From IMG/VR virus record IMGVR_UViG_3300045988_154953: a DNA stretch of 64,000 bases; one strand, 5' to 3'. This stretch comes from a virus. Shown here in pieces: positions 12,869 to 29,269 of the stretch. The notes below the pieces were generated by a model. That model was not told where the DNA came from, did no database searches, and was given only the letters and a program-made list of their open reading frames with translations. The first letter of the stretch is position 1, and the number at the start of each line of letters is the position of its first letter. The position numbers and the translations under genes are program-made.

Positions 12869-13645
12869 ATGGGATTATTTGGTAAATTATTCAAAGGGAA
12901 CAAAGTTGATACGAAAGAAAATGAAGCTATACTAAAAAATAGCACAGTTAGTCAAAACGTGATTGACATGTCTAAGTCATCAGAAAACTTAAATAAAGTT
13001 CTGATCAATATGTCTAAAACCGGAAAAATTGATATGACAAAACATGTTGCACGAGTTGCACTTGCTATGGATTATTCTGGCAGTATGTATAATTTGTATG
13101 ACAATGGATCTGTACAGAATGTTATCACAAGACTTCTTCCTATCGCATTGAAATTCGATGATAATGGTGAACTTGAAGCTTGGTTGTTTTCTAATGGTAA
13201 AGAAAGACTTGCTGCAGTAACAACTGAAAATTATAAAAACTATGTAAAAAAAGTAATGATGAAGTCAGGAATGAGAATGGGCGGTACAAATTATGCGCCT
13301 GTATTGGAAGATATGGTGATGTATTATAAAGATATTGAACCAAGCACTGTTCCAGCATTTATCATTTTTATTACAGACGGAGAAAATTTCGACACCGATG
13401 AAACGAATAGAATTATAAAAGAGTTATCAAACTATAATATTTTTATTCAATTTATTGGTATTGGTAATGAAGATTTTAAATACCTTAAATCCTTAGATAA
13501 CATGAAAGGTAGAAAACATGATAATACAGGGTTTACAGCTGTAGAGGATATGAACAAAATGACAGACGAAGAGTTGTACACAGAAATACTTAGACAGTAT
13601 AGTGCTTGGTATGAACGTAGTAAAGGAGTAAATAAATATGAGTAA
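12869..13645 (+). CDS. vWA domain protein (TerF/TerY-like)
   Basis: MIDAS motif DYSGSM. FITDGEN motif. Confidence 0.75.
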   Translation: MGLFGKLFKGNKVDTKENEAILKNSTVSQNVIDMSKSSENLNKVLINMSKTGKIDMTKHVARVALAMDYSGSMYNLYDNGSVQNVITRLLPIALKFDDNGELEAWLFSNGKERLAAVTTENYKNYVKKVMMKSGMRMGGTNYAPVLEDMVMYYKDIEPSTVPAFIIFITDGENFDTDETNRIIKELSNYNIFIQFIGIGNEDFKYLKSLDNMKGRKHDNTGFTAVEDMNKMTDEELYTEILRQYSAWYERSKGVNKYE

Positions 13646-14276
13646 TGTAATTAATATGAGTAAGAATCAGAAAATTAATATGACTAAAGATAATGGTGAG
13701 GCAATTAAGAATTTCTTCATTGGTGTAAATTGGGATCAAAATAGATATGCTGGAGAAGCAGATATTGATTTTGATATCAATGGTTTCTTAACAAATTCTG
13801 ACAGAAAAGTAATATACCCAAAAGATATTGTTAATTATAATACATATAATAGCAACGATTATCCATGGGTTGAATATTCCGGTGATAATTTAACAGGTGA
13901 TAATTCTATAGGTATTACATTTGATGGAAAGCATTATGATGAGTATTTTATTGTACACGCTGATTTATTTCCAAATGATAGAACAGATTTTACTATTTGC
14001 TTAACAATTTATAGAGCGGTTCAAAGATTGCAGAATTTTGGTATGATAAGCAATGCTTCAATGATGATTTGTGATTATGATGATCCAAGTGATAAAAAAT
14101 GGGAGTTTAACCTTTCTGAAGATGAAAAATTTGAAAATTTAAATGCTGTAGAAATAGGAAGACTTTATCGTTACGGTAACGGATTTAAATTTCAAGCACT
14201 TGGATCAGGATATGTCGGTGGAATGACAGAGCTGTTCAAAAACTTTGGATTAGATATTGATGAAGGTAGGGATTGA
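13638..14276 (+). CDS. TerD-family stress protein
   Basis: GDNLTGD signature (TerD Ca2+-binding motif) and IGVNWD motif. Confidence 0.75.
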   Translation: MSNVINMSKNQKINMTKDNGEAIKNFFIGVNWDQNRYAGEADIDFDINGFLTNSDRKVIYPKDIVNYNTYNSNDYPWVEYSGDNLTGDNSIGITFDGKHYDEYFIVHADLFPNDRTDFTICLTIYRAVQRLQNFGMISNASMMICDYDDPSDKKWEFNLSEDEKFENLNAVEIGRLYRYGNGFKFQALGSGYVGGMTELFKNFGLDIDEGRD

Positions 14277-14279
14277 TAG

Positions 14280-15011
14280 GTGGCTGCAATTATAATTGTT
14301 ATTACCATTATTATAGTTGGTGTATTATTTTTCACAAAGACAGGCAAAAGATTGAGACTTAGAGCGTCAGGCACAGCAGAAGAAATGATAACAAAAGATG
14401 CTGCAACACCAAATGGAGCTAAAGCACACTATAATGCCGTTATTTCAAAAAAAGAAGAAGAATATCAGAACGTAAACAAATTTTATACTGAAACGCTTGG
14501 AAACATTAAATTCTATGAAACACAATTGCGTTCATTGCAAAAAGAAAATATGCAGTTAAACCTTAATATTAATAATTGTGTTGAGAAAAACGATGATAAT
14601 GGTGCTAAAGTATATTTAGGTCGTCAACAAGAAGTAAATGATAAGATTGATATTATCAAAAATACTTTAGTTGAATTACGAAGAAATTCTGAGCTTCAAA
14701 AGGAAAATTTAGATACATTATATGAAAATATTAATAATTTAAAGTCCGAAAAGGAAACTTCAGTTTTGACTCTTGAAGCAGCTGAGATAACAAAATCATT
14801 AAAATCCGCTCCTGGTGTTTATTCGCAAGAAGAAGATAAAATGCTTGAAAAAGTACGCGATGGAGTAAAGAAAGCTAAGAAAGAAGCAGATGGCGTTAGT
14901 ATCGCTTATGAAAATTCAATGGATGTTCAACAGAAACGTCTTGATAAGAAAATGAAAGATGACGAAGTTAATAGAAAGCTTAAACAACTAAAAGATGCTA
15001 AGAAAAAATAA
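14280..15011 (+). CDS. membrane-anchored coiled-coil protein, PspA/IM30-like (tentative)
   Basis: N-terminal TM helix followed by a long heptad-rich helical region of PspA-like composition. GTG start. Confidence 0.5.
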   Translation: MAAIIIVITIIIVGVLFFTKTGKRLRLRASGTAEEMITKDAATPNGAKAHYNAVISKKEEEYQNVNKFYTETLGNIKFYETQLRSLQKENMQLNLNINNCVEKNDDNGAKVYLGRQQEVNDKIDIIKNTLVELRRNSELQKENLDTLYENINNLKSEKETSVLTLEAAEITKSLKSAPGVYSQEEDKMLEKVRDGVKKAKKEADGVSIAYENSMDVQQKRLDKKMKDDEVNRKLKQLKDAKKK

Positions 15012-15026
15012 ACTAATCAATTTAAC
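15010..15026 (+). promoter_or_regulatory. 17-nt motif copy M7 (AAACTAATCAATTTAAC)
   Basis: Ends 8 nt upstream of the -35 at 15035. Confidence 0.55.
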
Positions 15027-15034
15027 AAAAAATA

Positions 15035-15066
15035 TTGACAGAAAATAATATATATGATATTATAAT
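15035..15066 (+). promoter_or_regulatory. SigA-type promoter of the RNA-array operon
   Basis: TTGACA, 17 nt, TGaTATTAT(AAT). Confidence 0.65.
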
Positions 15067-15096
15067 CATGTCAGCAAGGATAGTTTTTGTAAAATT

Positions 15097-15113
15097 AAAC
15101 TAATCAATATAAT
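15097..15113 (+). promoter_or_regulatory. 17-nt motif copy M8 (AAACTAATCAATATAAT)
   Basis: Exact consensus, about 35 nt downstream of the promoter. Confidence 0.55.
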
Positions 15114-15354
15114 TTCCAAATGGTTTAAAATTTCCATTTGTTGAAAGAATCTGGTGTACGGAGCACGATAAATTGTTTTATTTAATTATAAAATAATTTG
15201 TAAGAAATAAGTTCAATTCTTATTGATTCTTCTTTGGCTTGCTGAAGCCAATCTCATACTTTTCATTCCATATCTTCTTTATAAGCTCTGATCCAGTTTT
15301 GAAGAATACATTGGAAGATGTTCACTTACTCATCTATAAAAAAGTAAGTAATAT

Positions 15355-15437
15355 AGGAGTGTGGTGAAATTGGATAGACACCCCAGATTTTGATTCTGGT
15401 GTCGCAAGACGTGTGGGTTCGAGTCCCACCACTCCCG
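15355..15437 (+). tRNA. class II (long variable arm) tRNA with apparent anticodon UUG
   Basis: T arm GTGGG-TTCGAGT-CCCAC. 3-bp D stem with a 12-nt loop. Anticodon arm CCAGA-TTTTGAT-TCTGG. Variable arm GTC-GCAA-GAC. Discriminator G. A1xC72 mismatch. Confidence 0.6.
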
Positions 15438-15636
15438 CTATGAACAAACTCCGAAGTACAAGGATAGTAGTTCAGAATGGATCCATAAAACAATTAAAAC
15501 ATCAAAAATACGCTGTTTTATTTCTTTATATTTAAATCTCGGTTTGGAGTTTGTAAGAAACAGTCTTTAGGTTACGTTAATATCTAGAAAACTTACCGGA
15601 GTTCGGCACTCTGGAGTGGATGTCTACCACTCAAGT

Positions 15637-15706
15637 TGCACTGCTAATGGATTAGCTGCTAAGTAGTCATTGGCCATGCAGAAAGGTTCGATTCCTTTCA
15701 GTGCAA
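15637..15706 (+). ncRNA. tRNA-like gene with non-canonical D and anticodon arms
   Basis: Acceptor TGCACTG/CAGTGCA. T arm AAAGG-TTCGATT-CCTTT. D region CTAA-TGGA-TTAG. Best anticodon arm GCTAA-GTAGTCA-TTGGC has C at position 37. Confidence 0.45.
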
Positions 15707-15963
15707 TTAAATTCTTTATTTCAGAGAAGTGAATAATCAGCATTAGGCTTAACACAAATGATAAGCATAAACTTGTTGCCAAGTGATTCTTGTAAAAAGA
15801 TTATAGAGTAAACTATTAAAAATCCTGCAAATAATCTCGTAGATCAGAGATTATCAGATATCTAGTCAATAAAAGGCGTTCACGACATCTGACAGAGAAT
15901 ATTAATTATTATGAAATGTATAAAATTAATGCGGATCATTTGCTTAGAATCATGATTCAGGTT

Positions 15964-16026
15964 TGTTCATTGGTGTAAAGGTGCATATCAGAAATGATGG
16001 TTCTGGTTCGACTCCAGAATGAACAA
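15964..16026 (+). ncRNA. tRNA-like gene lacking an anticodon arm (63 nt)
   Basis: Acceptor TGTTCAT/ATGAACA, a D arm, and T arm TCTGG-TTCGACT-CCAGA. The anticodon arm is replaced by ATCA-GAAA-TGAT. Confidence 0.5.
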
Positions 16027-16126
16027 TTATCTCATAAGTAGAAATGAGATGTGAGGACGCTATCCAAAATATAAGAAATAGTAAGCTTATGGATTGCTTG
16101 TACAAATATGCTGAAAATCCACACTT

Positions 16127-16200
16127 AGGAAATTAGCTCAGTTGGTGAGAGCGGCGGCCTTATAAGCCGTGTGTGCTGGGTTCAAGTCCCAGATTTCCTA
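16127..16200 (+). tRNA. tRNA-Ile (anticodon UAU)
   Basis: Full cloverleaf: AGGAAAT/ATTTCCT, GCTC-AGTTGGTGA-GAGC, GCGGC-CTTATAA-GCCGT, CTGGG-TTCAAGT-CCCAG. No encoded CCA. Confidence 0.85.
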
Positions 16201-16387
16201 TTCAATATAAAATAAGTATAAATGAACCATATAAAATATTCATATGTCATTCACTCCTGTTTTTACATACAATCTTTTTGGTTCATTAAATTCTATTTTG
16301 TATTTAGGCGATTTCTGCAATTCAAAGAAATTATAAAGTTATAATTAGACTTAAAATCTAATCGATAAAATTATATCGTCTAGTAAT

Positions 16388-16456
16388 GGCTTCATGGCGT
16401 AAAGGTTAGCGCAATAATCTAGTAATGAGGATCTGGTTCGAATCCAGATGAAGCCA
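16388..16456 (+). ncRNA. tRNA-like gene with an unpaired, shortened anticodon region
   Basis: Acceptor GGCTTCA/TGAAGCC, a D arm, and T arm TCTGG-TTCGAAT-CCAGA. The 19-nt middle segment AATAATCTAGTAATGAGGA forms no stem. Confidence 0.5.
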
Positions 16457-16504
16457 GCAGTATTTATTACTGTAATTCTTTTATATACCCTCCAATACAA
16501 CAGA

Positions 16505-16557
16505 TAGACACTAACAGCAATTTTTACATATGGTATTAAAAATATTTATGGTGTCTA
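16505..16557 (+). ncRNA. stem-closed ACAGCAA element E1
   Basis: TAGACAC (16505-11) pairs with GTGTCTA (16551-57). ACAGCAA at 16514-20. Confidence 0.5.
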
Positions 16558-16563
16558 GAATAT

Positions 16564-16683
16564 GGAAGACGTAGGGAAGTGGCCAAACCCAACAAAGAAT
16601 AGTGGTTAGCTACTTAATCGCTTACAGCAAAGTTAATTGTAAAACAGGCAAGTTTTCGTGAGTTCGAATCTCACCGTCTTCCA
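16564..16683 (+). tRNA. interrupted class II tRNA-like gene (Tyr-like D arm), about 45-nt insertion carrying ACAGCAA
   Basis: Acceptor GAAGACG/CGTCTTC with G-1 and C73. D arm GGG-AAGTGGCCAAA-CCC. Variable arm AAAAC-AGGCAA-GTTTT. T arm GTGAG-TTCGAAT-CTCAC. ACAGCAA at 16624-30. Anticodon not assignable. Confidence 0.5.
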
Positions 16684-16688
16684 AACCT

Positions 16689-16811
16689 CGTCAGATAGTT
16701 TCAATTGGTAAAACACTGCTTAAATCAAATGTGATTAGTTAATTAATCACTAACAGCAATATTCTTATGATGGGCCTGGCAGAACTATAGGTTCGAATCC
16801 TATTCTGGCGA
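16689..16811 (+). tRNA. interrupted tRNA-like gene; the anticodon-stem halves are separated by about 57 nt
   Basis: Acceptor CGTCAGA/TCTGGCG. D arm GTTT-CAATTGGTA-AAAC. Stem CTGCT...GGCAG. Inner hairpin GTGATTA-GTTAAT-TAATCAC followed by TA-ACAGCAA (16753-59). T arm ATAGG-TTCGAAT-CCTAT. Confidence 0.5.
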
Positions 16812-16813
16812 TT

Positions 16814-16870
16814 TAGACGGATACAGCAATTTAATGGATAAGACTTTTAATCTTAATACCAAGCCGTCTA
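16814..16870 (+). ncRNA. stem-closed ACAGCAA element E2 with a Lys(UUU) anticodon stem-loop and no D/T arms
   Basis: TAGACGG/CCGTCTA 7-bp closing stem. ACAGCAA at 16823-29. TAAGA-CTTTTAA-TCTTA at 16839-55. Confidence 0.55.
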
Positions 16871-16877
16871 GTATATG

Positions 16878-16992
16878 AGGAATATAGCTCAGTTGGTAGA
16901 GCATCGGACAATACAAAAAAGAGTCTAGTTATAGACTTGAACAGCAAATTATAAAACTCTGACTGTCGTTGGTTCGAATCCAACTATTCCTC
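16878..16992 (+). tRNA. interrupted tRNA-like gene (Lys-like body); the anticodon-stem halves are separated by 49 nt
   Basis: Acceptor AGGAATA/TATTCCT. D arm GCTC-AGTTGGTA-GAGC. Stem TCGGA...TCTGA. Inner hairpin GAGTCTA-GTTA-TAGACTT followed by GA-ACAGCAA (16941-47). T arm GTTGG-TTCGAAT-CCAAC. Confidence 0.5.
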
Positions 16993-16994
16993 AT

Positions 16995-17059
16995 TAGGTG
17001 CAATTACAGCAAAAAGAAAAGCGTATAATTTGGGATTATAATAGCAAAAACTGCACCTA
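16995..17059 (+). ncRNA. stem-closed ACAGCAA element E3 with a Pro(UGG) anticodon stem-loop and no D/T arms
   Basis: TAGGTGCA/TGCACCTA 8-bp closing stem. ACAGCAA at 17006-12. TATAA-TTTGGGA-TTATA at 17024-40 (G at position 37, as in tRNA-Pro). Confidence 0.55.
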
Positions 17060-17066
17060 GTTTGTC

Positions 17067-17193
17067 AAGTGGGTAGCTCAGTGGTAGAGCACGATAATAA
17101 GATAATGTGTCGAGTACTTTAGTGACACTTACAGCAATTTTTCTTTTTTGCATTTTAAGCACGATGTCGTAGGTTCGAGTCCTGCCCCACTTG
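17067..17193 (+). tRNA. tRNA-Lys(UUU)-like gene with a 55-nt insertion between the D arm and the anticodon arm
   Basis: Acceptor AAGTGGG/CCCACTT. D arm GCTC-AGTGGTA-GAGC. Insertion 17092-17146 contains GTGTC..GACAC-TT-ACAGCAA. Anticodon arm TTTGC-ATTTTAA-GCACG (4 of 5 pairs). Variable loop ATGTC. T arm GTAGG-TTCGAGT-CCTGC. Confidence 0.55.
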
Positions 17194-17196
17194 TTT

Positions 17197-17268
17197 TAGA
17201 TGATAACAGCAATTCACGAAAATATAAACACATTTATTAAACAAGTATAAAAGTTATAAAATCATCTA
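17197..17268 (+). ncRNA. stem-closed ACAGCAA element E4
   Basis: TAGATGAT/ATCATCTA closing stem. ACAGCAA at 17206-12. Confidence 0.5.
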
Positions 17269-17276
17269 GCGATTAT

Positions 17277-17335
17277 AAGACAGTTACAGCAACACTATTA
17301 TATAAAAGACTTAAAATTTAAAACAAAACTGTCTT
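17277..17335 (+). ncRNA. stem-closed ACAGCAA element E5
   Basis: AAGACAGT/ACTGTCTT closing stem. ACAGCAA at 17286-92. Weak Leu(UAA)-like loop CTTAAAA. Confidence 0.5.
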
Positions 17336-17384
17336 GGAATCAAAGTAACTTTACAACAATTTTGGTTCAAAGGAGAATAAATTT

Positions 17385-18938
17385 ATGTTTATGAACGATT
17401 TAAAAGAAACGTTAAATGAAGATTTTAATGAATCTATCACCGAAAATAATGCCAATGGTTATAGAACAACAGGAAAAGAACTGTTGGATATGAACTTTAT
17501 GGTATCTTCGATGAGAAAAATGAGTGATAAACAAATTATTGATAAATTTGTAAAAGCTTTCTATGAAAATAAAATGTATGCAATTAAATGGTTGTATTAC
17601 GTAAGGGATGCTCGTGAGGGAGTTGGCGAGAGAAGATTGTTCAGAGTTTGTATGGAATATCTTGCAAAGAATCATACAGACATTGCAAAAGCCATGATCC
17701 CTTTGACAGCTGAATATGGTCGTTGGGATGACTTATTATCTTTACTTGATACAGAATTAGCTGACAATGTTATTAAATTATTTGGTGATCAGCTTACTGA
17801 AGATATGAAAAACTTGAAATCAAATAAACCTATTTCATTATTAGGTAAATGGATGCCTAGCTGCAATGCATCATCTAGAAAAACTAGAAAACTGGGTGTA
17901 GAGATTGCGGAAAAGCTTGGTATTTCTGAAAGGAAGTATAGAAAGATGCTTTCTGCCATCAGAAAATATCTTGACGTTGTAGAAGTTAAAATGGCTGCAG
18001 GACAATGGGATCAGATTGATTATTCAAAAGTTTCCTCAAGAGCTAATTTAATTTATAATAACGCTTTTCTGAGACATGATGAAGAACGTAGACGTAAATA
18101 CCTTGAAAGCTTGCAAAAAGGCGAAACAAAGATTAATGCCGGTGTATTATTTCCACATGATATTGTACATAAGTATTATAACTTAGATTATTGGCGTATC
18201 AATATTAAAAATTATGATACAGCACTTGAAGAAATGTGGAAGGCATTACCAGATTATGTGAATGGTGCTGGTAATACAATTTGTGTTGCTGATGGGTCTG
18301 GAAGTATGTACACAAGAGTAGGTGGCACAAATGTAATGGCGATTGAAGTAGCAAATGCTTTAGCAATTTATTTTTCCGAAAGATGCTCTGGACAGTTTAA
18401 GGATAATTATATAACCTTTAGTATGAATCCGAAACTTGTTAGTTTTAGTAGAGCTAAATCTTTAAAAGAGAAAATAGAAATTGCTTTAAAACACACCGAA
18501 TGTGCTAATACGAATATTGAAGCCGTATTTGATTTGATTCTTAAAACAGCAATTAGAAAAAATATGAAACAGGATGAATTACCGCAGAATATATTGATTT
18601 TATCGGACATGGAGTTCGATAGTTGTGTTGAATACAATAGAAGTAGCAGATGTAATCTCAATAGACCTACCAAAAGATTATTTAAAGTATTTGAAGAAAG
18701 ATATGCTGAACATGGCTATAAACTTCCAAGATTAGTATTTTGGAATATTTGTAGTAGAACTGGTACAATTCCTGTAAAAGAAAATGATTTAGGTGTAGCA
18801 CTTGTAAGTGGTTTCAGTCCGGCAGTTGTTAAGATGGTACTTAGTAATAGTACAGATCCACTTGAATGTTTACTTGAACAGTTGAATTCAGAAAGATATC
18901 AGCCGGTAGAAGATGCAATCAAGGATTTAGTTGCTTAA
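17385..18938 (+). CDS. DUF2828-type protein: helical N-terminal domain plus C-terminal vWA (Ro60/TROVE-like architecture)
   Basis: N-terminal TENNANGY..TG..LLD motif typical of DUF2828. MIDAS motif DGSGSM at about aa 305. RBS AAAGGAG. Confidence 0.7.
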   Translation: MFMNDLKETLNEDFNESITENNANGYRTTGKELLDMNFMVSSMRKMSDKQIIDKFVKAFYENKMYAIKWLYYVRDAREGVGERRLFRVCMEYLAKNHTDIAKAMIPLTAEYGRWDDLLSLLDTELADNVIKLFGDQLTEDMKNLKSNKPISLLGKWMPSCNASSRKTRKLGVEIAEKLGISERKYRKMLSAIRKYLDVVEVKMAAGQWDQIDYSKVSSRANLIYNNAFLRHDEERRRKYLESLQKGETKINAGVLFPHDIVHKYYNLDYWRINIKNYDTALEEMWKALPDYVNGAGNTICVADGSGSMYTRVGGTNVMAIEVANALAIYFSERCSGQFKDNYITFSMNPKLVSFSRAKSLKEKIEIALKHTECANTNIEAVFDLILKTAIRKNMKQDELPQNILILSDMEFDSCVEYNRSSRCNLNRPTKRLFKVFEERYAEHGYKLPRLVFWNICSRTGTIPVKENDLGVALVSGFSPAVVKMVLSNSTDPLECLLEQLNSERYQPVEDAIKDLVA

Positions 18939-18943
18939 AAAGA

Positions 18944-19008
18944 ATAGATACGCACAGCAATTAAGAAGTTTGGTTTAGGTTCACATCCTTTTTCAAATAT
19001 TTGTATCT
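18944..19008 (+). ncRNA. stem-closed ACAGCAA element E6
   Basis: TAGATAC/GTATCTA closing stem. ACAGCAA at 18953-59. Starts 6 nt after the stop of 17385..18938. Confidence 0.5.
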
Positions 19009-19037
19009 AGATAAAAAATAGAAACGTTAAAAGTTAT

Positions 19038-19064
19038 GCGTCAGTAAAGTTGCTGACGCATTTT
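19038..19064 (+). terminator. Rho-independent terminator ending the RNA-array operon
   Basis: GCGTCAG-N8-CTGACGC followed by ATTTT. Confidence 0.65.
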
Positions 19065-19081
19065 ACAAATAGGAGAAGTAA

Positions 19082-19372
19082 ATGGTTTTTTGTAGTGATG
19101 ATAGAAAAGAATTAATTGTGACATGTAAATGTGGATGCCAGGATTCAATTCATGTGAAAATAGATAAAGAAAGTCCAGACTATTATTGTTTGGTTACTTA
19201 TATGAATGGTAATTGGAGTAGAGATCAAGGAGATAAGATTCATAGAACAATTGGAAGAAAACTTAAGAAAATCTGGAGTATTATTCGCAATAAAGATTAC
19301 TATTATTCAGATATTATTATGAGAAAGTCAGATTTCAAGATATTAAAAAATTATATTAATGAGATTGAGTAG
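19082..19372 (+). CDS. hypothetical protein
   Basis: ORF with RBS AGGAGAAG. Confidence 0.6.
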   Translation: MVFCSDDRKELIVTCKCGCQDSIHVKIDKESPDYYCLVTYMNGNWSRDQGDKIHRTIGRKLKKIWSIIRNKDYYYSDIIMRKSDFKILKNYINEIE

Positions 19373-20377
19373 ATGCACATGTTACAAATTTTAGAATTGT
19401 TTGGTGGTATTGGAAGTCCAAGAGTAGCACTTCGCAATTTAGGTATTCCAGTAAAAGCCATTGACTATGTTGAAATTGATGCAAAGGCTGTAAGAAGTTA
19501 TAATGCAATGTTCGCATCGGAACTTCCTTATAAAACACAATCAGTTATTGGTTATAATTTACAACCAGATATCCTTATACATGGGAGTCCATGTCAGACC
19601 TTCAGTATAGCTGGTCATCAAGGTGGATTAACAAAAGAAAACGGTCGTATAAATAGAGGTGCCGGGGCTGATGAAGGATCTGGTTCGCAGTCATCTCTTA
19701 TGTGGGAAACAGTTAATATTATAAAACAAATGGGTGAATGGAAACCTAAAATTGTCATTTGGGAAAATGTAAAGAATATAACAAGCAAATATATGATACA
19801 TAATTTTGTTAAGTATCTTAACGTAATGGAAGAAATGGGATATACAAATTCATATGAATGTCTAGATGCAAGAGATTTTGGAATACCACAAGCGAGAGAA
19901 AGGGTATTTACAATTTCCTGTTTAAATGGCACAAAATTTAATTTTAAAACTTTGAAACATACTAAAATGAGACCTTTACAGAATTTTTTAGAAGATAATG
20001 TTTCTGAAAGATATTTAGTAACGCAGCCAAGTATTCTTTCTACCATCGGCAATACAAAAACGATCAAGAGAGCAACCGTAATTAAAGATTATGTATATAC
20101 AATTACAGAACGTCAAGATAGATGCCCGGCACAAATTATTGATGTTGGAAATGGCAAGTATAGATTTTTAACAGAATTAGAATGTTGGAGATTATTTGGA
20201 TATTCAGATGATGACTATTATGCTGCGGAAGCTGCTAATCCAAAACGTAAGAATGCGATTGTGAATAGAACTTTGTATCGACAAGCTGGTAATAGCATAG
20301 TGGTTCCAATATTTGAATCTATATTTGAACAGTGTTTAGATATATTAAATTATAATAAAGCAACAGTAGAGGAATAA
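19373..20377 (+). CDS. DNA (cytosine-5)-methyltransferase
   Basis: Motifs FGGIGS (I), PCQTFS (IV), ENV (VI), QARERVF (VIII) and GNS (X). Confidence 0.9.
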   Translation: MHMLQILELFGGIGSPRVALRNLGIPVKAIDYVEIDAKAVRSYNAMFASELPYKTQSVIGYNLQPDILIHGSPCQTFSIAGHQGGLTKENGRINRGAGADEGSGSQSSLMWETVNIIKQMGEWKPKIVIWENVKNITSKYMIHNFVKYLNVMEEMGYTNSYECLDARDFGIPQARERVFTISCLNGTKFNFKTLKHTKMRPLQNFLEDNVSERYLVTQPSILSTIGNTKTIKRATVIKDYVYTITERQDRCPAQIIDVGNGKYRFLTELECWRLFGYSDDDYYAAEAANPKRKNAIVNRTLYRQAGNSIVVPIFESIFEQCLDILNYNKATVEE

Positions 20378-25985: not shown

Positions 25986-26354
25986 TTGAGTTGTAAGTAT
26001 CCAGAAAATAGTAGAAGTTATATGTTTTGTATTGGATGTAAAGAAGCAGATTCTTGTTCAAGTTCAACATTCAACATTCCAATGCCAGATAATGTAAAGC
26101 CACCAAAAAATTCTATTCCAACAGCTGCTGAAGCAAAAAATGTAACTGAGTTGGCTATAGAGAATTCTATCACCAAACAATTAGAAGAATTATCATTTAA
26201 AATAAATACAGCAATTCATAAAGGAAAATATGACATTACAAACGATGGTATTTTGGATCTAGAAGTAAAAAGAAGATTAGAAGATCTCGGTTATAATATT
26301 ACAATTGGGAATCAATATAACGAATCATATTATACGATTAGTTGGAAAGGATGA
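25986..26354 (+). CDS. hypothetical protein
   Basis: ORF with TTG start. Its 3' end carries the second copy of a 27-bp direct repeat. Confidence 0.55.
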   Translation: MSCKYPENSRSYMFCIGCKEADSCSSSTFNIPMPDNVKPPKNSIPTAAEAKNVTELAIENSITKQLEELSFKINTAIHKGKYDITNDGILDLEVKRRLEDLGYNITIGNQYNESYYTISWKG

Positions 26355-27054: not shown

Positions 27055-28386
27055 ATGGAGGCTATGAACTGGAACCCGGTATTAAGCAAGTTTGTAGAAA
27101 TTAAAAATGAATTCAAAAAGAAACTTGGATATATAACTTACTATTATACTGAAGGTTACACAAACGAATCTCAAACTTGTTTAGAAAGATGGGTAGAATA
27201 TTTAAATGGTATTAAGCCGTTTAATCAATATCAAGAGTATGCAGATTTGCTTTCATGTCTTGAATTAAATCAATATGGAGATTTTCTTCTTTTAAGATAT
27301 GGAAGATATAGTAACATTTATGATGGTGAAATTGAAAAGTCTGGTGAGGATTTTTGGGATAGATATGAGGGTTTTTACAGAGAATGTAGAAGTATAGTAA
27401 TTGATGTAAAAAATGATTGTATTGTACTTTGCCCATTTCGCAAATTTTTTAATCTAAATGAGTTAGAAGAAACTAGTGAAGAAAACATTAATAAAAGAAT
27501 TGAGAACGCATCACTTATAGAATTTTCAAATAAATTAGATGGATCGATGCAAACAGCTACATGGTACGATGGTAAAATTATTATGGCTGGAAGTCAAGCA
27601 ATAAATCCAGAAAAATCGTGGAGATTACAGGATGGATACAGAATGATTCAAGCGTTGCCTGGATATGAGCAAATGCTTAAAATGCATCCTAACTTTACAT
27701 TTATATTTGAATATATCTCTTTGGCCGATGCTCATGTAGTAAAATATAAAAAAGAGCAAGAAGGTCTATATCTTATTGGTATTAGAGATAATTTAACAGG
27801 ACATGAACTTAGTTATCGTAAGGTGATAGATATTGCTAATCATTTTAATATTCCAACAACGGTATTATTTGATAAAACACTTGGACAAATCTTAAATGAA
27901 TTAGATAACAAAAGTTCAGAAGAAGCAGAAGGCTTTGTTATTAACATTGATGAATATAAAGTTAAAGTGAAATATAATGATTATGTACATATTCATAAAG
28001 CACTGTCTAAACTCTCTTCAATAAATCTTATTATTCGTTCTATTGCAGATGATCAGTACGATGATCTCTTATCTAAACTTCCAGCAGCTTATCATGATAG
28101 TGTAAAAAAAGTAGCTGCTATCGTATTCAGATATATAAAAGATACAGAACGAACTTCTAACGAATATTTTCAGCAAGCTCCAAAAACTAGTCAAAAAGAA
28201 TTCATGATCTGGATTGATAGAAATGTTCCTAAAAAGTTCCGTGGATTTTGTAGGGAATTGTATTTTGGAAACGAAATTAATGTAATTAAATTCAATCAAT
28301 CTGGAGATCCAAAATATTTAAAATTAAATCAAATGGGAGTAAATGATTACTCTACATTATTCACACAGGAGGAAGAAAATGAGTAA
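27055..28386 (+). CDS. ATP-dependent RNA ligase (T4 Rnl1-like)
   Basis: Nucleotidyl-transferase motif I KLDGS and EGFV(I) motif. Size and layout fit phage RNA ligases. Confidence 0.7.
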   Translation: MEAMNWNPVLSKFVEIKNEFKKKLGYITYYYTEGYTNESQTCLERWVEYLNGIKPFNQYQEYADLLSCLELNQYGDFLLLRYGRYSNIYDGEIEKSGEDFWDRYEGFYRECRSIVIDVKNDCIVLCPFRKFFNLNELEETSEENINKRIENASLIEFSNKLDGSMQTATWYDGKIIMAGSQAINPEKSWRLQDGYRMIQALPGYEQMLKMHPNFTFIFEYISLADAHVVKYKKEQEGLYLIGIRDNLTGHELSYRKVIDIANHFNIPTTVLFDKTLGQILNELDNKSSEEAEGFVINIDEYKVKVKYNDYVHIHKALSKLSSINLIIRSIADDQYDDLLSKLPAAYHDSVKKVAAIVFRYIKDTERTSNEYFQQAPKTSQKEFMIWIDRNVPKKFRGFCRELYFGNEINVIKFNQSGDPKYLKLNQMGVNDYSTLFTQEEENE

Positions 28387-29269
28387 ACCTATACTTTGGG
28401 TTATGGTAGGACTTTCGGGAAGCGGTAAGTCAACGATTGCTAAAAAAATTGCTGCTGATAATCCTAATACACTAATAATATCGTCAGATAATATTCGTGA
28501 AGAAATAACCGGTGATTATGAAGACCAGGAACATAACGCAGAAGTATTTAATATTTTTCATGATAGAATTCTCAAGAATCTTGAAAATAAACAGAACGTC
28601 GTAGCCGATGCTACAAATCTTACAATAAAATCCCGTAGATCAATTTTGAATAAAGTGAATGGATTAGATATTGAGAAAATATGTGTTATTATTCCAAAAC
28701 CATTTGAAAAGTGTAAAGAAGATAATTTACATAGAGAGCATCCTGTACCAGAAGATGTATTAAATAAACAGCTCAGAAGATTTCAAGTACCATTTAAAGA
28801 AGAAGGGTGGAATGAAATTAAAATCCATTATTTACAAAAAGATGGATATGAACCAAATGAGATTCGTTTCTTAGATATGGAAAGTTTTGATCAGAAGAAC
28901 CCGCATCATACTATGGATTTACTTGAGCATTGTACACATGCAACAGACATGTTTATCGAAAAACACAAATATTCGCCAGAATTTATAATTGGTGCTTTAT
29001 ATCATGATATTGGTAAGCTGTACACACAAACATTTGATGAAAACGGTATAGCTCATTACTACCAGCATCATGCGGTCGGTTCATATTTGTATTTTACTAG
29101 TATGTATCCAATAGGGAATCCTGTATTAGATACATGTTTTCTTATCAACTATCATATGATGCCATTTAGTTGGGAAAGCGATAAGTCAAAGAAAAAGTGG
29201 AAAAAGATATTTGGTAATTATAAATATCAAATGCTTTTAGATTTTAATGAATGTGACAAGGCGAGATAG
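28379..29269 (+). CDS. polynucleotide kinase (P-loop) fused to an HD-domain phosphohydrolase
   Basis: GLSGSGKST Walker A at the N-terminus. HHTMDLLEH and YHDIGK (HD motif) in the C-terminal half. ATG at 28379 after AGGAGGAAG overlaps the ligase stop. Confidence 0.7.
   Translation: MSKPILWVMVGLSGSGKSTIAKKIAADNPNTLIISSDNIREEITGDYEDQEHNAEVFNIFHDRILKNLENKQNVVADATNLTIKSRRSILNKVNGLDIEKICVIIPKPFEKCKEDNLHREHPVPEDVLNKQLRRFQVPFKEEGWNEIKIHYLQKDGYEPNEIRFLDMESFDQKNPHHTMDLLEHCTHATDMFIEKHKYSPEFIIGALYHDIGKLYTQTFDENGIAHYYQHHAVGSYLYFTSMYPIGNPVLDTCFLINYHMMPFSWESDKSKKKWKKIFGNYKYQMLLDFNECDKAR

What the first reader, a model, noticed from the sequence alone, without database searches (positions are those of the whole stretch)
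17277..19064. Ro60/TROVE-like vWA protein encoded inside the RNA array and bracketed by two stem-closed RNAs: a candidate phage Ro-Y RNA-like RNP
ORF 17385..18938 has the DUF2828 N-terminal signature (TENNANGY..TG..LLD) followed by a vWA domain with MIDAS motif DGSGSM. That gives the same helical-repeat-plus-vWA architecture as Ro60/Rsr.

The gene sits in the same promoter-to-terminator unit (15035 to 19064) as the tRNA-like genes. Element E5 ends 50 nt upstream of it, and E6 starts 6 nt downstream.

In bacteria, Rsr is encoded next to its Y RNAs. Those RNAs are closed by a 5'/3' terminal stem and, in YrlA, contain a tRNA-like domain.

Here, terminal-stem-closed RNAs with a semi-conserved TAGAC/GTCTA helix plus a single-stranded ACAGCAA, together with tRNA bodies whose anticodon loop is replaced by an extended arm, would be natural ligands for such a protein. 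An array of about ten candidate ligands next to one Ro-like gene has not, to my knowledge, been described.
Basis: inference. Interest (0 to 1): 0.8.

Follow-up and report, generated by a model that had tools for sequence, protein, structure and literature searches.

The report
Ro-like phage protein with ACAGCAA RNAs
A phage gene for a protein built like the RNA-binding Ro60 protein sits among about ten small hairpin and tRNA-like RNA genes that all carry the tag ACAGCAA, and the same gene-plus-RNA pairing recurs in many unrelated phages, which points to an undescribed protein-RNA particle, probably acting on tRNA damage or turnover during infection.

Summary
ORF 17385..18938 encodes a 517-aa DUF2828 + DUF7788 protein with an all-helical N-terminal half and a vWA domain. 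Its MIDAS metal-site residues are invariant across the family.

The six best full-length structure matches are all Ro60/TROVE proteins, and profile comparison links the vWA half to Ro60. The N-terminal half on its own shows no significant TROVE similarity, so a Ro-like ring is not shown.

The stronger result concerns the RNAs. Ten ACAGCAA copies flank the gene on its strand. Six are hairpins with a covarying closing helix, and four sit inside tRNA-like bodies.

In 173 homologous loci, 76% have ACAGCAA 30-250 nt upstream of the start codon, against 1.5% expected by chance. A covariance model finds the element next to the gene, always on its strand, in eight phage genera at E≤1. The motif with a closing stem is visible in three more, for six host phyla in all. 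It finds nothing in the T4 or T5 tRNA regions.

No Rfam family and no paper in the searched library describes the element. Many elements contain anticodon-arm-like or T-arm-like hairpins.

The best reading is a Ro/Y-RNA-like particle formed by a divergent protein family and its own RNA motif. Binding is inferred, not shown.

The parts
15035..15063 (+). Promoter-like site (TTGACA-17-TATTAT, with TG upstream of the second hexamer) at the head of the tRNA/small-RNA array
   Evidence: It is the best + strand match in the scan (11 of 12). It is a consensus match only.
16503..16559 (+). E1: stand-alone ACAGCAA hairpin (closing helix TAGACAC/GTGTCTA)
   Evidence: Covariance model R1 gives 45.1 bits, E 5e-9. 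The fold has a 9-bp terminal stem, z -3.2.
16566..16686 (+). tRNA-like RNA (acceptor-like stem and T arm) carrying ACAGCAA at 16624 after an internal hairpin
   Evidence: Read from the sequence. The fold shows a terminal stem and a T-arm hairpin. It falls below the Rfam tRNA threshold.
16688..16812 (+). tRNA-like RNA carrying ACAGCAA at 16753 directly 3' of the hairpin GTGATTA/TAATCAC
16812..16872 (+). E2: stand-alone ACAGCAA hairpin with an inner anticodon-arm-like hairpin (loop CUUUUAA)
   Evidence: R1 gives 55.3 bits, E 1e-11. Fold. Loop class.
16878..16992 (+). tRNA body with a 48-nt insert in the anticodon loop that contains hairpin GTCTA/TAGAC followed by ACAGCAA (16941)
   Evidence: Rfam tRNA 51.8 bits, with the insert shown in the alignment. 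Fold.
16993..17061 (+). E3: stand-alone ACAGCAA hairpin (closing helix AGGTGCA/TGCACCT)
   Evidence: R1 gives 29 bits, E 8e-5. Fold.
17067..17193 (+). tRNA body whose anticodon arm is replaced by a 68-nt insert containing hairpin GTGTC/GACAC followed by ACAGCAA (17131)
   Evidence: Rfam tRNA 43 bits. R1 hits 17120-17170 at E 0.01. The insert is flanked by a GCACGAT direct repeat.
17195..17270 (+). E4: stand-alone ACAGCAA hairpin (closing helix TAGATGAT/ATCATCTA)
   Evidence: R1 gives 23.3 bits, E 0.0024, and this element was not in the seed alignment. Fold.
17275..17337 (+). E5: ACAGCAA hairpin in the leader of the gene. This is the best-conserved position of the element family.
   Evidence: R1 gives 52.5 bits, E 6e-11. 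76% of 173 homologous loci have ACAGCAA 30-250 nt upstream of the start codon.
17385..18938 (+). DUF2828 + DUF7788 protein (PHROG 850): helical N-terminal half plus a Ro60-type vWA domain with an intact MIDAS site
18943..19011 (+). E6: ACAGCAA hairpin directly after the stop codon, with an inner T-arm-like hairpin (AGGTTCACATCCT)
   Evidence: R1 gives 34.2 bits, E 3e-6. Fold. A downstream copy is seen in only about 10% of homologous loci.
19038..19064 (+). Possible intrinsic terminator (GCGTCAG-N8-CTGACGC followed by ATTTT)
   Evidence: Visible in the sequence. The terminator scan did not call it.

Best explanation
The gene encodes a divergent Ro60-like RNA-binding protein. It has a helical N-terminal half and a Ro60-type vWA/MIDAS C-terminal half. 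The ACAGCAA elements around it are its cognate small RNAs, playing the role that Y RNAs play for Ro60.

The proposed course of events is as follows:
- The array is transcribed together with the phage tRNAs.
- tRNA-processing enzymes cut it into hairpins of about 55-75 nt and tRNA-like RNAs of about 115-130 nt.
- In each RNA a helix strand runs 3' into single-stranded ACAGCAA. The protein recognises this junction.
- The variable remainder of each RNA is tRNA-like (an anticodon-arm-like hairpin, a T arm or a whole tRNA body). It brings the particle to enzymes or substrates that act on tRNA, such as exoribonucleases, the RNA repair enzymes encoded nearby, or host tRNA-cleaving defence nucleases.
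- The copy in the gene's own leader (E5) may also let the protein control its own synthesis.

Shown here: the protein architecture and its best matches, the RNA motif and its covarying helix, and the conserved same-strand adjacency across distant phages.

Inferred: transcription and processing, binding, and the downstream function.
For: Protein:
- The six best Foldseek PDB matches of the full-length model are all Ro60/TROVE proteins over 508-575 columns, with E from 2e-10 to 4e-5. The next matches are generic vWA proteins at E 1e-2 or worse.
- The best PDB sequence matches of the family profile are Ro60.
- 17 of 62 family members weakly match Pfam vWA_Ro60.
- hhalign to Ro60/Rsr profiles aligns 167-169 columns of the vWA domain at E 7.5e-5 and 2.3e-4.
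- The MIDAS residues are invariant.
- PHROG 850 is annotated 'RNA-binding protein'.

RNA element:
- There are ten same-strand copies in the window.
- In the closing helix, 7 of 8 pairs show changes on both sides. 85% of cells are paired, against 31-54% when the partner strand is slid, and no shuffle out of 500 reached the observed covariation score.

Association with the gene:
- In 80 IMG/VR loci, ACAGCAA occurs 537 times on the gene strand and 43 times on the other.
- 76% of 173 loci have it 30-250 nt upstream of the start codon, against 1.5% expected.
- All 56 model hits at E≤0.01 in 80 GTDB loci, and all 22 hits at E≤1 in 12 GenBank phage loci, lie on the gene strand.
- Model hits at E≤1 fall in phages of Bacillus, Listeria, Enterococcus, Staphylococcus, Campylobacter, Klebsiella, E. 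coli and Synechococcus. Stem-closed motifs were read by eye in phages of Mycobacterium, Sinorhizobium and Fusobacterium (the Fusobacterium copy was a seed sequence). Protein identity to the query is 32-39%.
- The T5 and T4 tRNA regions give no hit at E≤10.
- No other protein neighbour is conserved.

tRNA mimicry and context:
- 31% of short elements have an anticodon-arm-like inner hairpin, against 4% in shuffled sequences. 13 have a T-loop hairpin, against 0.5 expected.
- Four copies in the window sit inside tRNA-like bodies.
- RNA repair genes lie nearby: Rnl1 and a polynucleotide-kinase-like kinase in this phage, RtcB in Listeria phage P100plus, and an RNA ligase in Serratia phage BF.

Precedent: Ro60 partners are encoded within 4 kb on the same strand and carry a terminal stem, a short motif (GNCGAA or CGAA) and a tRNA-like domain (PMC4201824, PMC12135203).
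Against: - There is no binding, expression or processing data.
- The N-terminal half alone has no significant TROVE match by fold. Its best matches are generic ARM/HEAT repeats at E 0.4 or worse, and no Ro60 entry is in the top 50. It has none by profile either, with probabilities below 2%.
- Pfam TROVE does not match at E≤1.
- The full-length model is only moderate (pLDDT 76; TM-score 0.36-0.57 to Ro60 structures).
- The motif differs from the Y RNA motif, and no Rfam Y RNA model matches.
- Two phages with the gene, a KVP40-like Vibrio phage and Serratia phage BF, show no evident element.
- In the reverse search, only 23 of 120 motif-bearing IMG/VR stretches contained the gene. Those stretches were short and many matches were probably chance.
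- The sequences used for the covariation count were pre-selected for having a helix.
Confidence: 0.6

Rival explanations
1. The ACAGCAA hairpins are cis-acting signals of the transcript, not free RNA partners. They could be processing or punctuation sites of the tRNA operon, and for E5 a translational operator in the leader of the DUF2828 mRNA. They may or may not be bound by the protein.
For: - The best-conserved copy lies a median of 95 nt upstream of the start codon, and its 3' arm is usually 25-45 nt from the ATG.
- The elements abut tRNA genes with gaps of 1-6 nt.
- No free-RNA data exist.
Against: - There are many copies per locus. Some lie downstream of the gene and some inside tRNA-like bodies.
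- The exact 7-mer is kept in phages of hosts with very different RNase sets, including Actinobacteria, Firmicutes, Proteobacteria and Campylobacter. This argues against recognition by a host RNase.
- The T4 and T5 tRNA arrays lack the element.
- An autoregulatory role for E5 is compatible with, and would in fact require, binding by the protein.
Confidence: 0.2
2. The elements are tRNA-mimic decoys or substrates that act on their own or with other factors, for example against host anticodon nucleases or with the RNA ligase and kinase repair enzymes. The DUF2828 protein is a vWA/MIDAS adaptor with a different, protein-directed role and is merely encoded in the same region.
For: - Anticodon-arm-like and T-arm-like inner hairpins are strongly enriched.
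- RNA repair genes are common neighbours.
- vWA/MIDAS domains usually bind proteins.
- The N-terminal TROVE homology is not established.
Against: - DUF2828 is the only protein neighbour conserved across all the lineages examined.
- The elements flank the gene even where no tRNA genes or ligase are annotated in the stretch examined: Mycobacterium phage Rose5, Fusobacterium phage FNU3 and Staphylococcus phage S-CoN_Ph1.
- ACAGCAA itself is not a tRNA feature, so it needs its own reader.
Confidence: 0.12
3. The elements are decaying tRNA genes or small mobile insertions that spread within phage tRNA arrays, and the motif is a relic or an insertion signature without RNA-level function.
For: - The 68-nt insert in tRNA-like 17067-17193 is flanked by a GCACGAT direct repeat.
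- HNH homing endonuclease genes are frequent in these arrays.
- tRNA-derived hairpins occur inside the elements.
Against: - The helices covary while the 7-mer stays exact across phyla.
- The orientation is strictly that of the gene strand: 56 of 56 and 22 of 22 model hits.
- The position upstream of the start codon is conserved.
- The element is absent from T4 and T5.
Confidence: 0.05

Closest known systems
Bacterial Ro60 (Rsr) with its Y RNAs YrlA and Yrn1 (PMC4201824)
   Same: - The protein has a helical half plus a vWA/MIDAS half of about 500-540 aa.
- The partner RNAs are encoded within a few kb on the same strand.
- Each RNA has a terminal 5'/3' stem, with a short conserved motif on the 5' side of a large loop.
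- A second module of the RNA mimics tRNA.
- There are genomic links to RNA repair ligases such as RtcB.
   Different: - The N-terminal half is not detectably TROVE by sequence.
- The motif is ACAGCAA, not GNCGAA.
- There are up to about ten copies per locus, embedded in a phage tRNA operon.
- Some copies have the motif inserted in the anticodon position of an otherwise open tRNA body, and others carry only an anticodon-arm-like hairpin.
- No Rfam Y RNA model matches.
Thermus phage phiLo Ro60 with Yrl1 and Yrl2 (PMC12135203; PDB 9l5y, 9kop)
   Same: - It is a phage-encoded Ro-type protein with small RNAs encoded just upstream.
- Its structures are the best structural matches of the model made here (E 2e-10 and 2e-8).
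- The authors propose that it counters host RNA turnover by attenuating PNPase.
   Different: - phiLo Ro60 is a canonical TROVE protein, and its RNAs carry CGAA.
- Sequence similarity to the DUF2828 profile is insignificant (E 0.7).
Stable RNAs of unknown function in the T4 (rnaC, rnaD) and T5 (RNA1, RNA2, RNA3 and others) tRNA clusters
   Same: They are small, partly tRNA-like RNAs co-encoded with phage tRNAs, and their function is unknown (annotations).
   Different: They give no hit to the ACAGCAA model at E≤10. No DUF2828 gene is annotated in those regions.
PHROG 850 / Pfam DUF2828 + DUF7788 proteins of cultured phages
   Same: This is the same family. 710 GenBank phage records have a homologue, and some are already annotated 'RNA-binding protein' or 'Ro-like RNA binding protein'.
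   Different: The searched literature describes no RNA partner, function or structure for the family.

Membership tests
Pfam DUF2828 + DUF7788 (PHROG 850) | Matches to both Pfam models above their gathering scores, and a full-length match to the PHROG profile | tested here: met
   DUF2828 scores 138.6 bits (cut-off 29) and DUF7788 scores 149.6 bits (cut-off 27.1). phrog_850 matches at E 1e-138 over residues 3-506.
Ro60 / TROVE proteins | TROVE (HEAT-repeat ring) domain detectable by sequence (Pfam PF05731) | tested here: not met
   There is no TROVE hit at E≤1 for the protein or for any of 62 family members. hhalign of the N-terminal halves gives probabilities of 0.1-1.7%.
Ro60 / TROVE proteins | C-terminal vWA domain of the Ro60 type with a MIDAS site | tested here: met
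   hhalign aligns 167-169 columns at E 7.5e-5 (probability 62%) and E 2.3e-4 (probability 44%). 17 of 62 members weakly hit PF25045 vWA_Ro60. D303, S305, S307, T376 and D408 are invariant. The support is moderate, not strong.
Ro60 / TROVE proteins | Overall fold: a closed helical ring packed against the vWA domain | tested here: inconclusive
   For the full-length model the six best PDB matches are all Ro60/TROVE, with TM-scores of 0.36-0.57 over more than 500 columns. The N-terminal-only model matches only generic ARM/HEAT repeats at E 0.4 or worse. Ring closure could not be inspected.
Ro60 / TROVE proteins | Binds Y RNAs and misfolded RNAs | not testable with these tools
   This needs a gel-shift assay, RNA immunoprecipitation or a structure of the complex.
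Y RNAs (YrlA type) | Encoded within about 4 kb of the protein gene, on the same strand | tested here: met
Y RNAs (YrlA type) | Terminal stem formed by the 5' and 3' ends | tested here: met
   This holds for the six stand-alone elements, and the helix covaries in 36 sequences. In the four tRNA-like copies the terminal stem is the acceptor-like stem.
Y RNAs (YrlA type) | Conserved GNCGAA or CGAA motif, or a match to Rfam Y RNA models | tested here: not met
   The motif is ACAGCAA, or UCAGCAA in a cyanophage. Rfam gives no match other than tRNA at E≤5.
Y RNAs (YrlA type) | A tRNA-like module | tested here: met
   Rfam tRNA hits at 16878-16992 and 17067-17193 carry the motif in an insert. T-arm-like and anticodon-arm-like hairpins are enriched inside the short elements. 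The topology differs from YrlA.
tRNA (for the chimeric bodies) | Cloverleaf with a 7-nt anticodon loop | tested here: not met
   48-nt and 68-nt inserts replace the anticodon loop or arm. ARAGORN does not call them.

The most novel reading that the evidence does not exclude
ACAGCAA is a protein-recognition tag grafted onto a set of tRNA mimics: anticodon-arm mimics with loops such as CUUUUAA, CUUGAAA, CUCAUAA and CUGUUAA, T-arm minihelices, and whole tRNA bodies. With the DUF2828 protein they would form a widespread, undescribed class of phage particles that sense, decoy or repair damage by host tRNA-cleaving defence nucleases. This would be an RNA-based counter-defence present in many cultured phages, including relatives of Felix O1 and P100.
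Probability: 0.25. Interest if true: 0.85.

Novelty: new variant of a known kind. Interest (0 to 1): 0.7.

Why it matters
Ro60 with its Y RNAs is a long-studied but still poorly understood RNA surveillance system. A second protein family with the same layout, and its own unmistakable RNA tag, would give an independent view of how such particles work.

The family is large. It has about 6,900 clusters at 50% identity and homologues in 710 cultured-phage records. These include well-studied, genetically tractable phage groups that infect E. coli, Salmonella, Listeria, Staphylococcus and Campylobacter.

The prediction can be tested directly with a gel-shift assay, an RNA pull-down and a deletion mutant.

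The work also gives a name and a search model to many unannotated gaps in phage tRNA regions, and it explains some 'pseudo-tRNA' calls. The tRNA-mimicking parts of the RNAs, together with neighbouring RNA ligase and kinase genes, connect the system to the current question of how phages survive host nucleases that cut tRNAs.

Tried and rejected
- **Nucleotide search of GenBank phages** with 15000-19400 found no match.
- **PDB sequence search** with the single protein and with a profile of close relatives found nothing useful. Only a more diverse profile reached Ro60, and weakly.
- **PADLOC and NCBIfam** gave no hit.
- **Collecting Ro60 relatives with a human Ro60 fragment** returned only fragments. 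Instead I used the Xenopus sequence, verified as identical to PDB 1yvp, together with the human Ro60 and Deinococcus Rsr sequences read. I then added a deeper bacterial Rsr alignment.
- **N-terminal-domain-only tests** for TROVE similarity gave no significant result, by fold or by profile.
- **Reverse search for TAGACACNNACAGCAA in IMG/VR** was only partly informative. The stored stretches are short and many matches lack the closing arm.
- **A conserved small ORF downstream of the gene** as a third partner was rejected.
- **Short introns.** I considered that the inserts in the tRNA bodies might be introns. I could not derive a normal 7-nt anticodon loop by any simple excision, so I did not pursue it.
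- **Known self-cleaving ribozymes or riboswitches** were considered, but Rfam gave nothing.
- **Literature searches** for DUF2828, for 'ACAGCAA' with phage, for 'Ro-like RNA binding protein', for TROVE with phage, and for tRNA-like decoys found no description of this RNA. The library does not hold most subscription-journal papers.
Full report
**What is in the window.** ORF 17385..18938 (+ strand, 517 aa) starts at an ATG preceded by AAGGAG. It matches Pfam DUF2828 (E 3e-40) and DUF7788 (E 1e-43), and weakly VWA_2. It also matches PHROG 850, annotated 'RNA-binding protein', at E 1e-138.

The window belongs to a metagenomic phage contig of about 215 kb. The closest relatives of the protein lie on contigs binned with gut Clostridia and Lachnospiraceae genomes.

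The quoted N-terminal string and the DGSGSM motif are present. In a 62-sequence alignment reaching down to 39% identity, D303, S305, S307, T376 and D408 are invariant. Together they form a complete MIDAS metal site.

The upstream region holds genuine tRNAs (Gln at 15355, Ile at 16127) and several tRNA-like bodies. Two of these have inserts of 48 and 68 nt in place of the anticodon loop.

ACAGCAA occurs 21 times in the window against 8 expected. Ten of these copies lie on the + strand between 16514 and 18954. Six are hairpins of 57-76 nt with an 8-10 bp terminal stem and ACAGCAA at the 5' edge of the loop. In the other four the motif follows a short local hairpin inside a tRNA-like body.

E5 ends 47 nt before the ATG and E6 starts 5 nt after the stop codon. 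A strong promoter-like site lies at 15035. The putative terminator at 19038-19064 is visible in the sequence, but the scan did not call it.

**Is the protein Ro60-like?** A full-length AlphaFold2 model (pLDDT 76, pTM 0.67) was compared with the PDB. The six best matches are all Ro60/TROVE proteins:
- a 'Trove domain' structure, 9kop (E 2e-10);
- two chains of Thermus phage phiLo Ro60, 9l5y (E 2e-8 and 3e-7);
- Deinococcus Rsr (E 9e-6);
- human Ro60 (E 1e-5);
- Xenopus Ro60 (E 4e-5).

These alignments span 508-575 columns with TM-scores of 0.36-0.57. Generic vWA proteins follow at E 1e-2 or worse.

At the sequence level the diverse family profile finds Ro60 as its best PDB match, but only weakly and only in the vWA region (E 0.03-0.06). 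17 of 62 members weakly hit Pfam vWA_Ro60. hhalign against Ro60/Rsr profiles aligns 167-169 vWA columns at E 7.5e-5 and 2.3e-4. The Ro60 sequences used were checked against PDB entries.

The N-terminal half is a different matter. Modelled alone, it matches only generic ARM/HEAT/TOG solenoids at E 0.4 or worse. Profile comparisons with the Ro60 ring domain are insignificant.

My conclusion is that the architecture and the vWA half are Ro60-like. The N-terminal half is a helical repeat domain, and its homology to TROVE and its ring closure remain unproven here.

Others have already annotated this family as Ro-like or RNA-binding. 710 GenBank phage records have a homologue, and some mycobacteriophage records name it 'Ro-like RNA binding protein'.

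**The RNA association is the main finding.**
- In 80 IMG/VR loci encoding homologues of 56-75% identity, ACAGCAA occurs 537 times on the gene strand and 43 times on the other. The copies cluster in the 2 kb upstream of the gene.
- The 20 nt upstream of the motif show a consensus close to AAAGRCRC-NN-ACAGCAA-UUUU.
- The same stem-closed element lies beside the gene in phages whose proteins are only 32-39% identical to the query:
  - Bacillus phage PBC2, including a TAGACAC..ACAGCAA..GTGTCTA copy nearly identical in design to E1;
  - Enterococcus phage EFDG1;
  - Listeria phage P100plus;
  - Staphylococcus phage S-CoN_Ph1;
  - Campylobacter phage CP81;
  - E. coli phage heid (a Felixounavirus);
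  - Klebsiella phage KP13-16;
  - Sinorhizobium phage phiN3;
  - Fusobacterium phage FNU3;
  - the GC-rich Mycobacterium phage Rose5;
  - Synechococcus phage B3, which has a UCAGCAA variant.
- Across 173 loci, 76% have an exact ACAGCAA 30-250 nt upstream of the start codon on the coding strand, against 1.5% expected. The median distance is 95 nt.
- A perfect adjoining helix of at least 7 bp is found at 55% of motif sites, against 10-20% at control sites.
- The helix covaries, with examples such as AAGGCAGT/ACTGCCTT, GAGACGCTA/TAGCGTCTC and AGGGTATTT/AAATACCCT.
- In a MAFFT alignment of 36 elements, 7 of 8 pairs change on both sides. 85% of cells pair, against 31-54% with slid partners, and no shuffle out of 500 reaches the observed covariation score. 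The caveat is that these sequences were chosen because they had a helix.

A covariance model built from that alignment gives the following:
- It recovers all six hairpins in the window, including one that was not in the seed.
- It finds significant hits in phages outside the seed set: CP81 (E 1e-7), PBC2 (1e-7), the Staphylococcus phage (3e-7), Listeria (4e-4), EFDG1 (5e-4), Klebsiella (8e-4) and Synechococcus (1e-3). All 22 hits at E≤1 lie on the gene strand.
- It gives 56 hits at E≤0.01 in 80 GTDB loci, again all on the gene strand.
- It gives no hit at E≤10 in the T5 tRNA region (24 kb, 25 annotated tRNA genes plus its stable RNAs) or in the T4 tRNA region.

The element is therefore not a general feature of phage tRNA arrays. 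No other protein neighbour is conserved across these phages.

There are exceptions. A KVP40-like Vibrio phage and Serratia phage BF have the gene without an evident element. A reverse search from the motif found the gene in only 23 of 120 short IMG/VR stretches, many of which were probably chance matches.

**What the RNAs look like.** The invariant feature is a helix strand that continues 3', after 0-3 nt, into single-stranded ACAGCAA. In the stand-alone hairpins the partner strand comes from the 3' end of the RNA. In the tRNA-like bodies it comes from a short upstream hairpin.

The rest of each RNA varies but is often derived from tRNA. Of 321 short elements, 31% contain an inner hairpin with a 7-nt anticodon-type loop, against 4% in shuffled sequences. 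The commonest loops are CUUUUAA, CUUGAAA, CUCAUAA, CUGUUAA and CUGCAAA. Another 13 contain a T-loop hairpin, against 0.5 expected.

In the window, E2 has a CUUUUAA hairpin and E6 has a T-arm-like hairpin. The overall picture is a short tag placed on tRNA-like scaffolds of different sizes.

**Comparison with what is known.** Bacterial and phage Ro60 partners (YrlA, Yrl1 and Yrl2) are found within 4 kb of the protein gene on the same strand. They have a terminal stem flanking a loop that carries a short motif (GNCGAA or CGAA), and YrlA has a tRNA-like module (PMC4201824; PMC12135203). A review of jumbo phages notes TROVE proteins as part of phage RNA repair systems (PMC7824862).

The system here has the same layout but differs in four ways:
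- a different and much larger protein family, with about 6,900 clusters at 50% identity;
- a different motif;
- many copies per locus;
- integration into a tRNA operon.

RNA repair genes are frequent neighbours. This phage has a T4 Rnl1-type ligase and a P-loop kinase 8 kb downstream. Listeria phage P100plus has RtcB 1.3 kb downstream. Serratia phage BF has an RNA ligase directly upstream.

I found no Rfam family and no paper in the searchable library describing the RNA or linking DUF2828 to an RNA.

**Mechanism and confidence.** The reading I favour, at about 0.6, is that the protein binds the helix/ACAGCAA junction and forms particles analogous to Ro60 with Y RNA. The tRNA-like parts of the RNAs would then direct these particles to tRNA-related enzymes or substrates. 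The leader copy E5 may add autoregulation.

The sequence, structural-model and comparative facts above are shown. Transcription, processing, binding and function are inferred.

The rivals are:
- purely cis-acting signals (0.2);
- RNAs that act without this protein (0.12);
- decaying or mobile tRNA relics (0.05).

The protein's Ro-likeness is real for the vWA half and for the overall architecture, unproven for the ring, and already hinted at in annotations made by others. The conserved ACAGCAA RNA family appears to be undescribed. I rate the finding a new variant of a known kind, with interest 0.7.

Noticed in passing
window 26197-26256 (+): The ACAGCAA covariance model gives a further hit (33.8 bits, E 4e-6) inside ORF 25986-26354 (122 aa, TTG start), about 0.8 kb upstream of the RNA ligase gene. 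It could be an embedded element or a false positive in AT-rich coding DNA.
   Followed up: partly
window 27055-28386 and about 28343-29269 (+): A T4 Rnl1-type RNA ligase gene is followed by a P-loop kinase gene (Pfam AAA_33, KTI12, Zeta_toxin). Together they look like a tRNA repair pair, 8 kb downstream of the DUF2828 gene.
   Followed up: partly
window 17089-17095 and 17159-17165: The 7-nt direct repeat GCACGAT flanks the 68-nt ACAGCAA-bearing insert of tRNA-like 17067-17193. This is reminiscent of an insertion or duplication event.
   Followed up: no
window 12869-14276 (+), and further upstream: A vWA-TerF-like gene and a TerD gene lie directly upstream of the array. Before them come a P-type cation ATPase gene and an NAD-dependent DNA ligase gene, which is unusual cargo for a phage.
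   Followed up: no
window 15146-15232 and 16388-16456 (+): There are further odd tRNA-like genes without ACAGCAA. ARAGORN calls the first 'tRNA-???' with a 2-nt anticodon. The second is an Rfam tRNA hit with a defective anticodon arm.
   Followed up: no
L212 2366 and 4305 (Synechococcus phage B3): The stem-closed elements flanking the DUF2828 gene carry UCAGCAA instead of ACAGCAA, so the core of the motif may be CAGCAA.
   Followed up: partly
L085 (KVP40-like Vibrio phage VH1_2019) and L211 (Serratia phage BF): These phages have the DUF2828 gene but no evident stem-closed ACAGCAA element within the 2.5-4 kb flanks examined. In Serratia phage BF an RNA ligase gene lies directly upstream.
   Followed up: partly
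L083 3400-3830 (Enterococcus phage EFDG1): Three tandem tRNA-like units share a larger conserved block (…GTTCCAACC..AGG..GCCGGAACATAAAGAA..ACAGCAA/ACAGCGA… followed by a T arm). This suggests a lineage-specific, more elaborate version of the RNA in Herelleviridae.
   Followed up: no
L296 (T5 28000-52000) and L297 (T4 68000-75000): The classical 'stable RNAs of unknown function' in the T5 and T4 tRNA clusters are not members of the ACAGCAA family. The model gives no hit at E≤10.
   Followed up: yes
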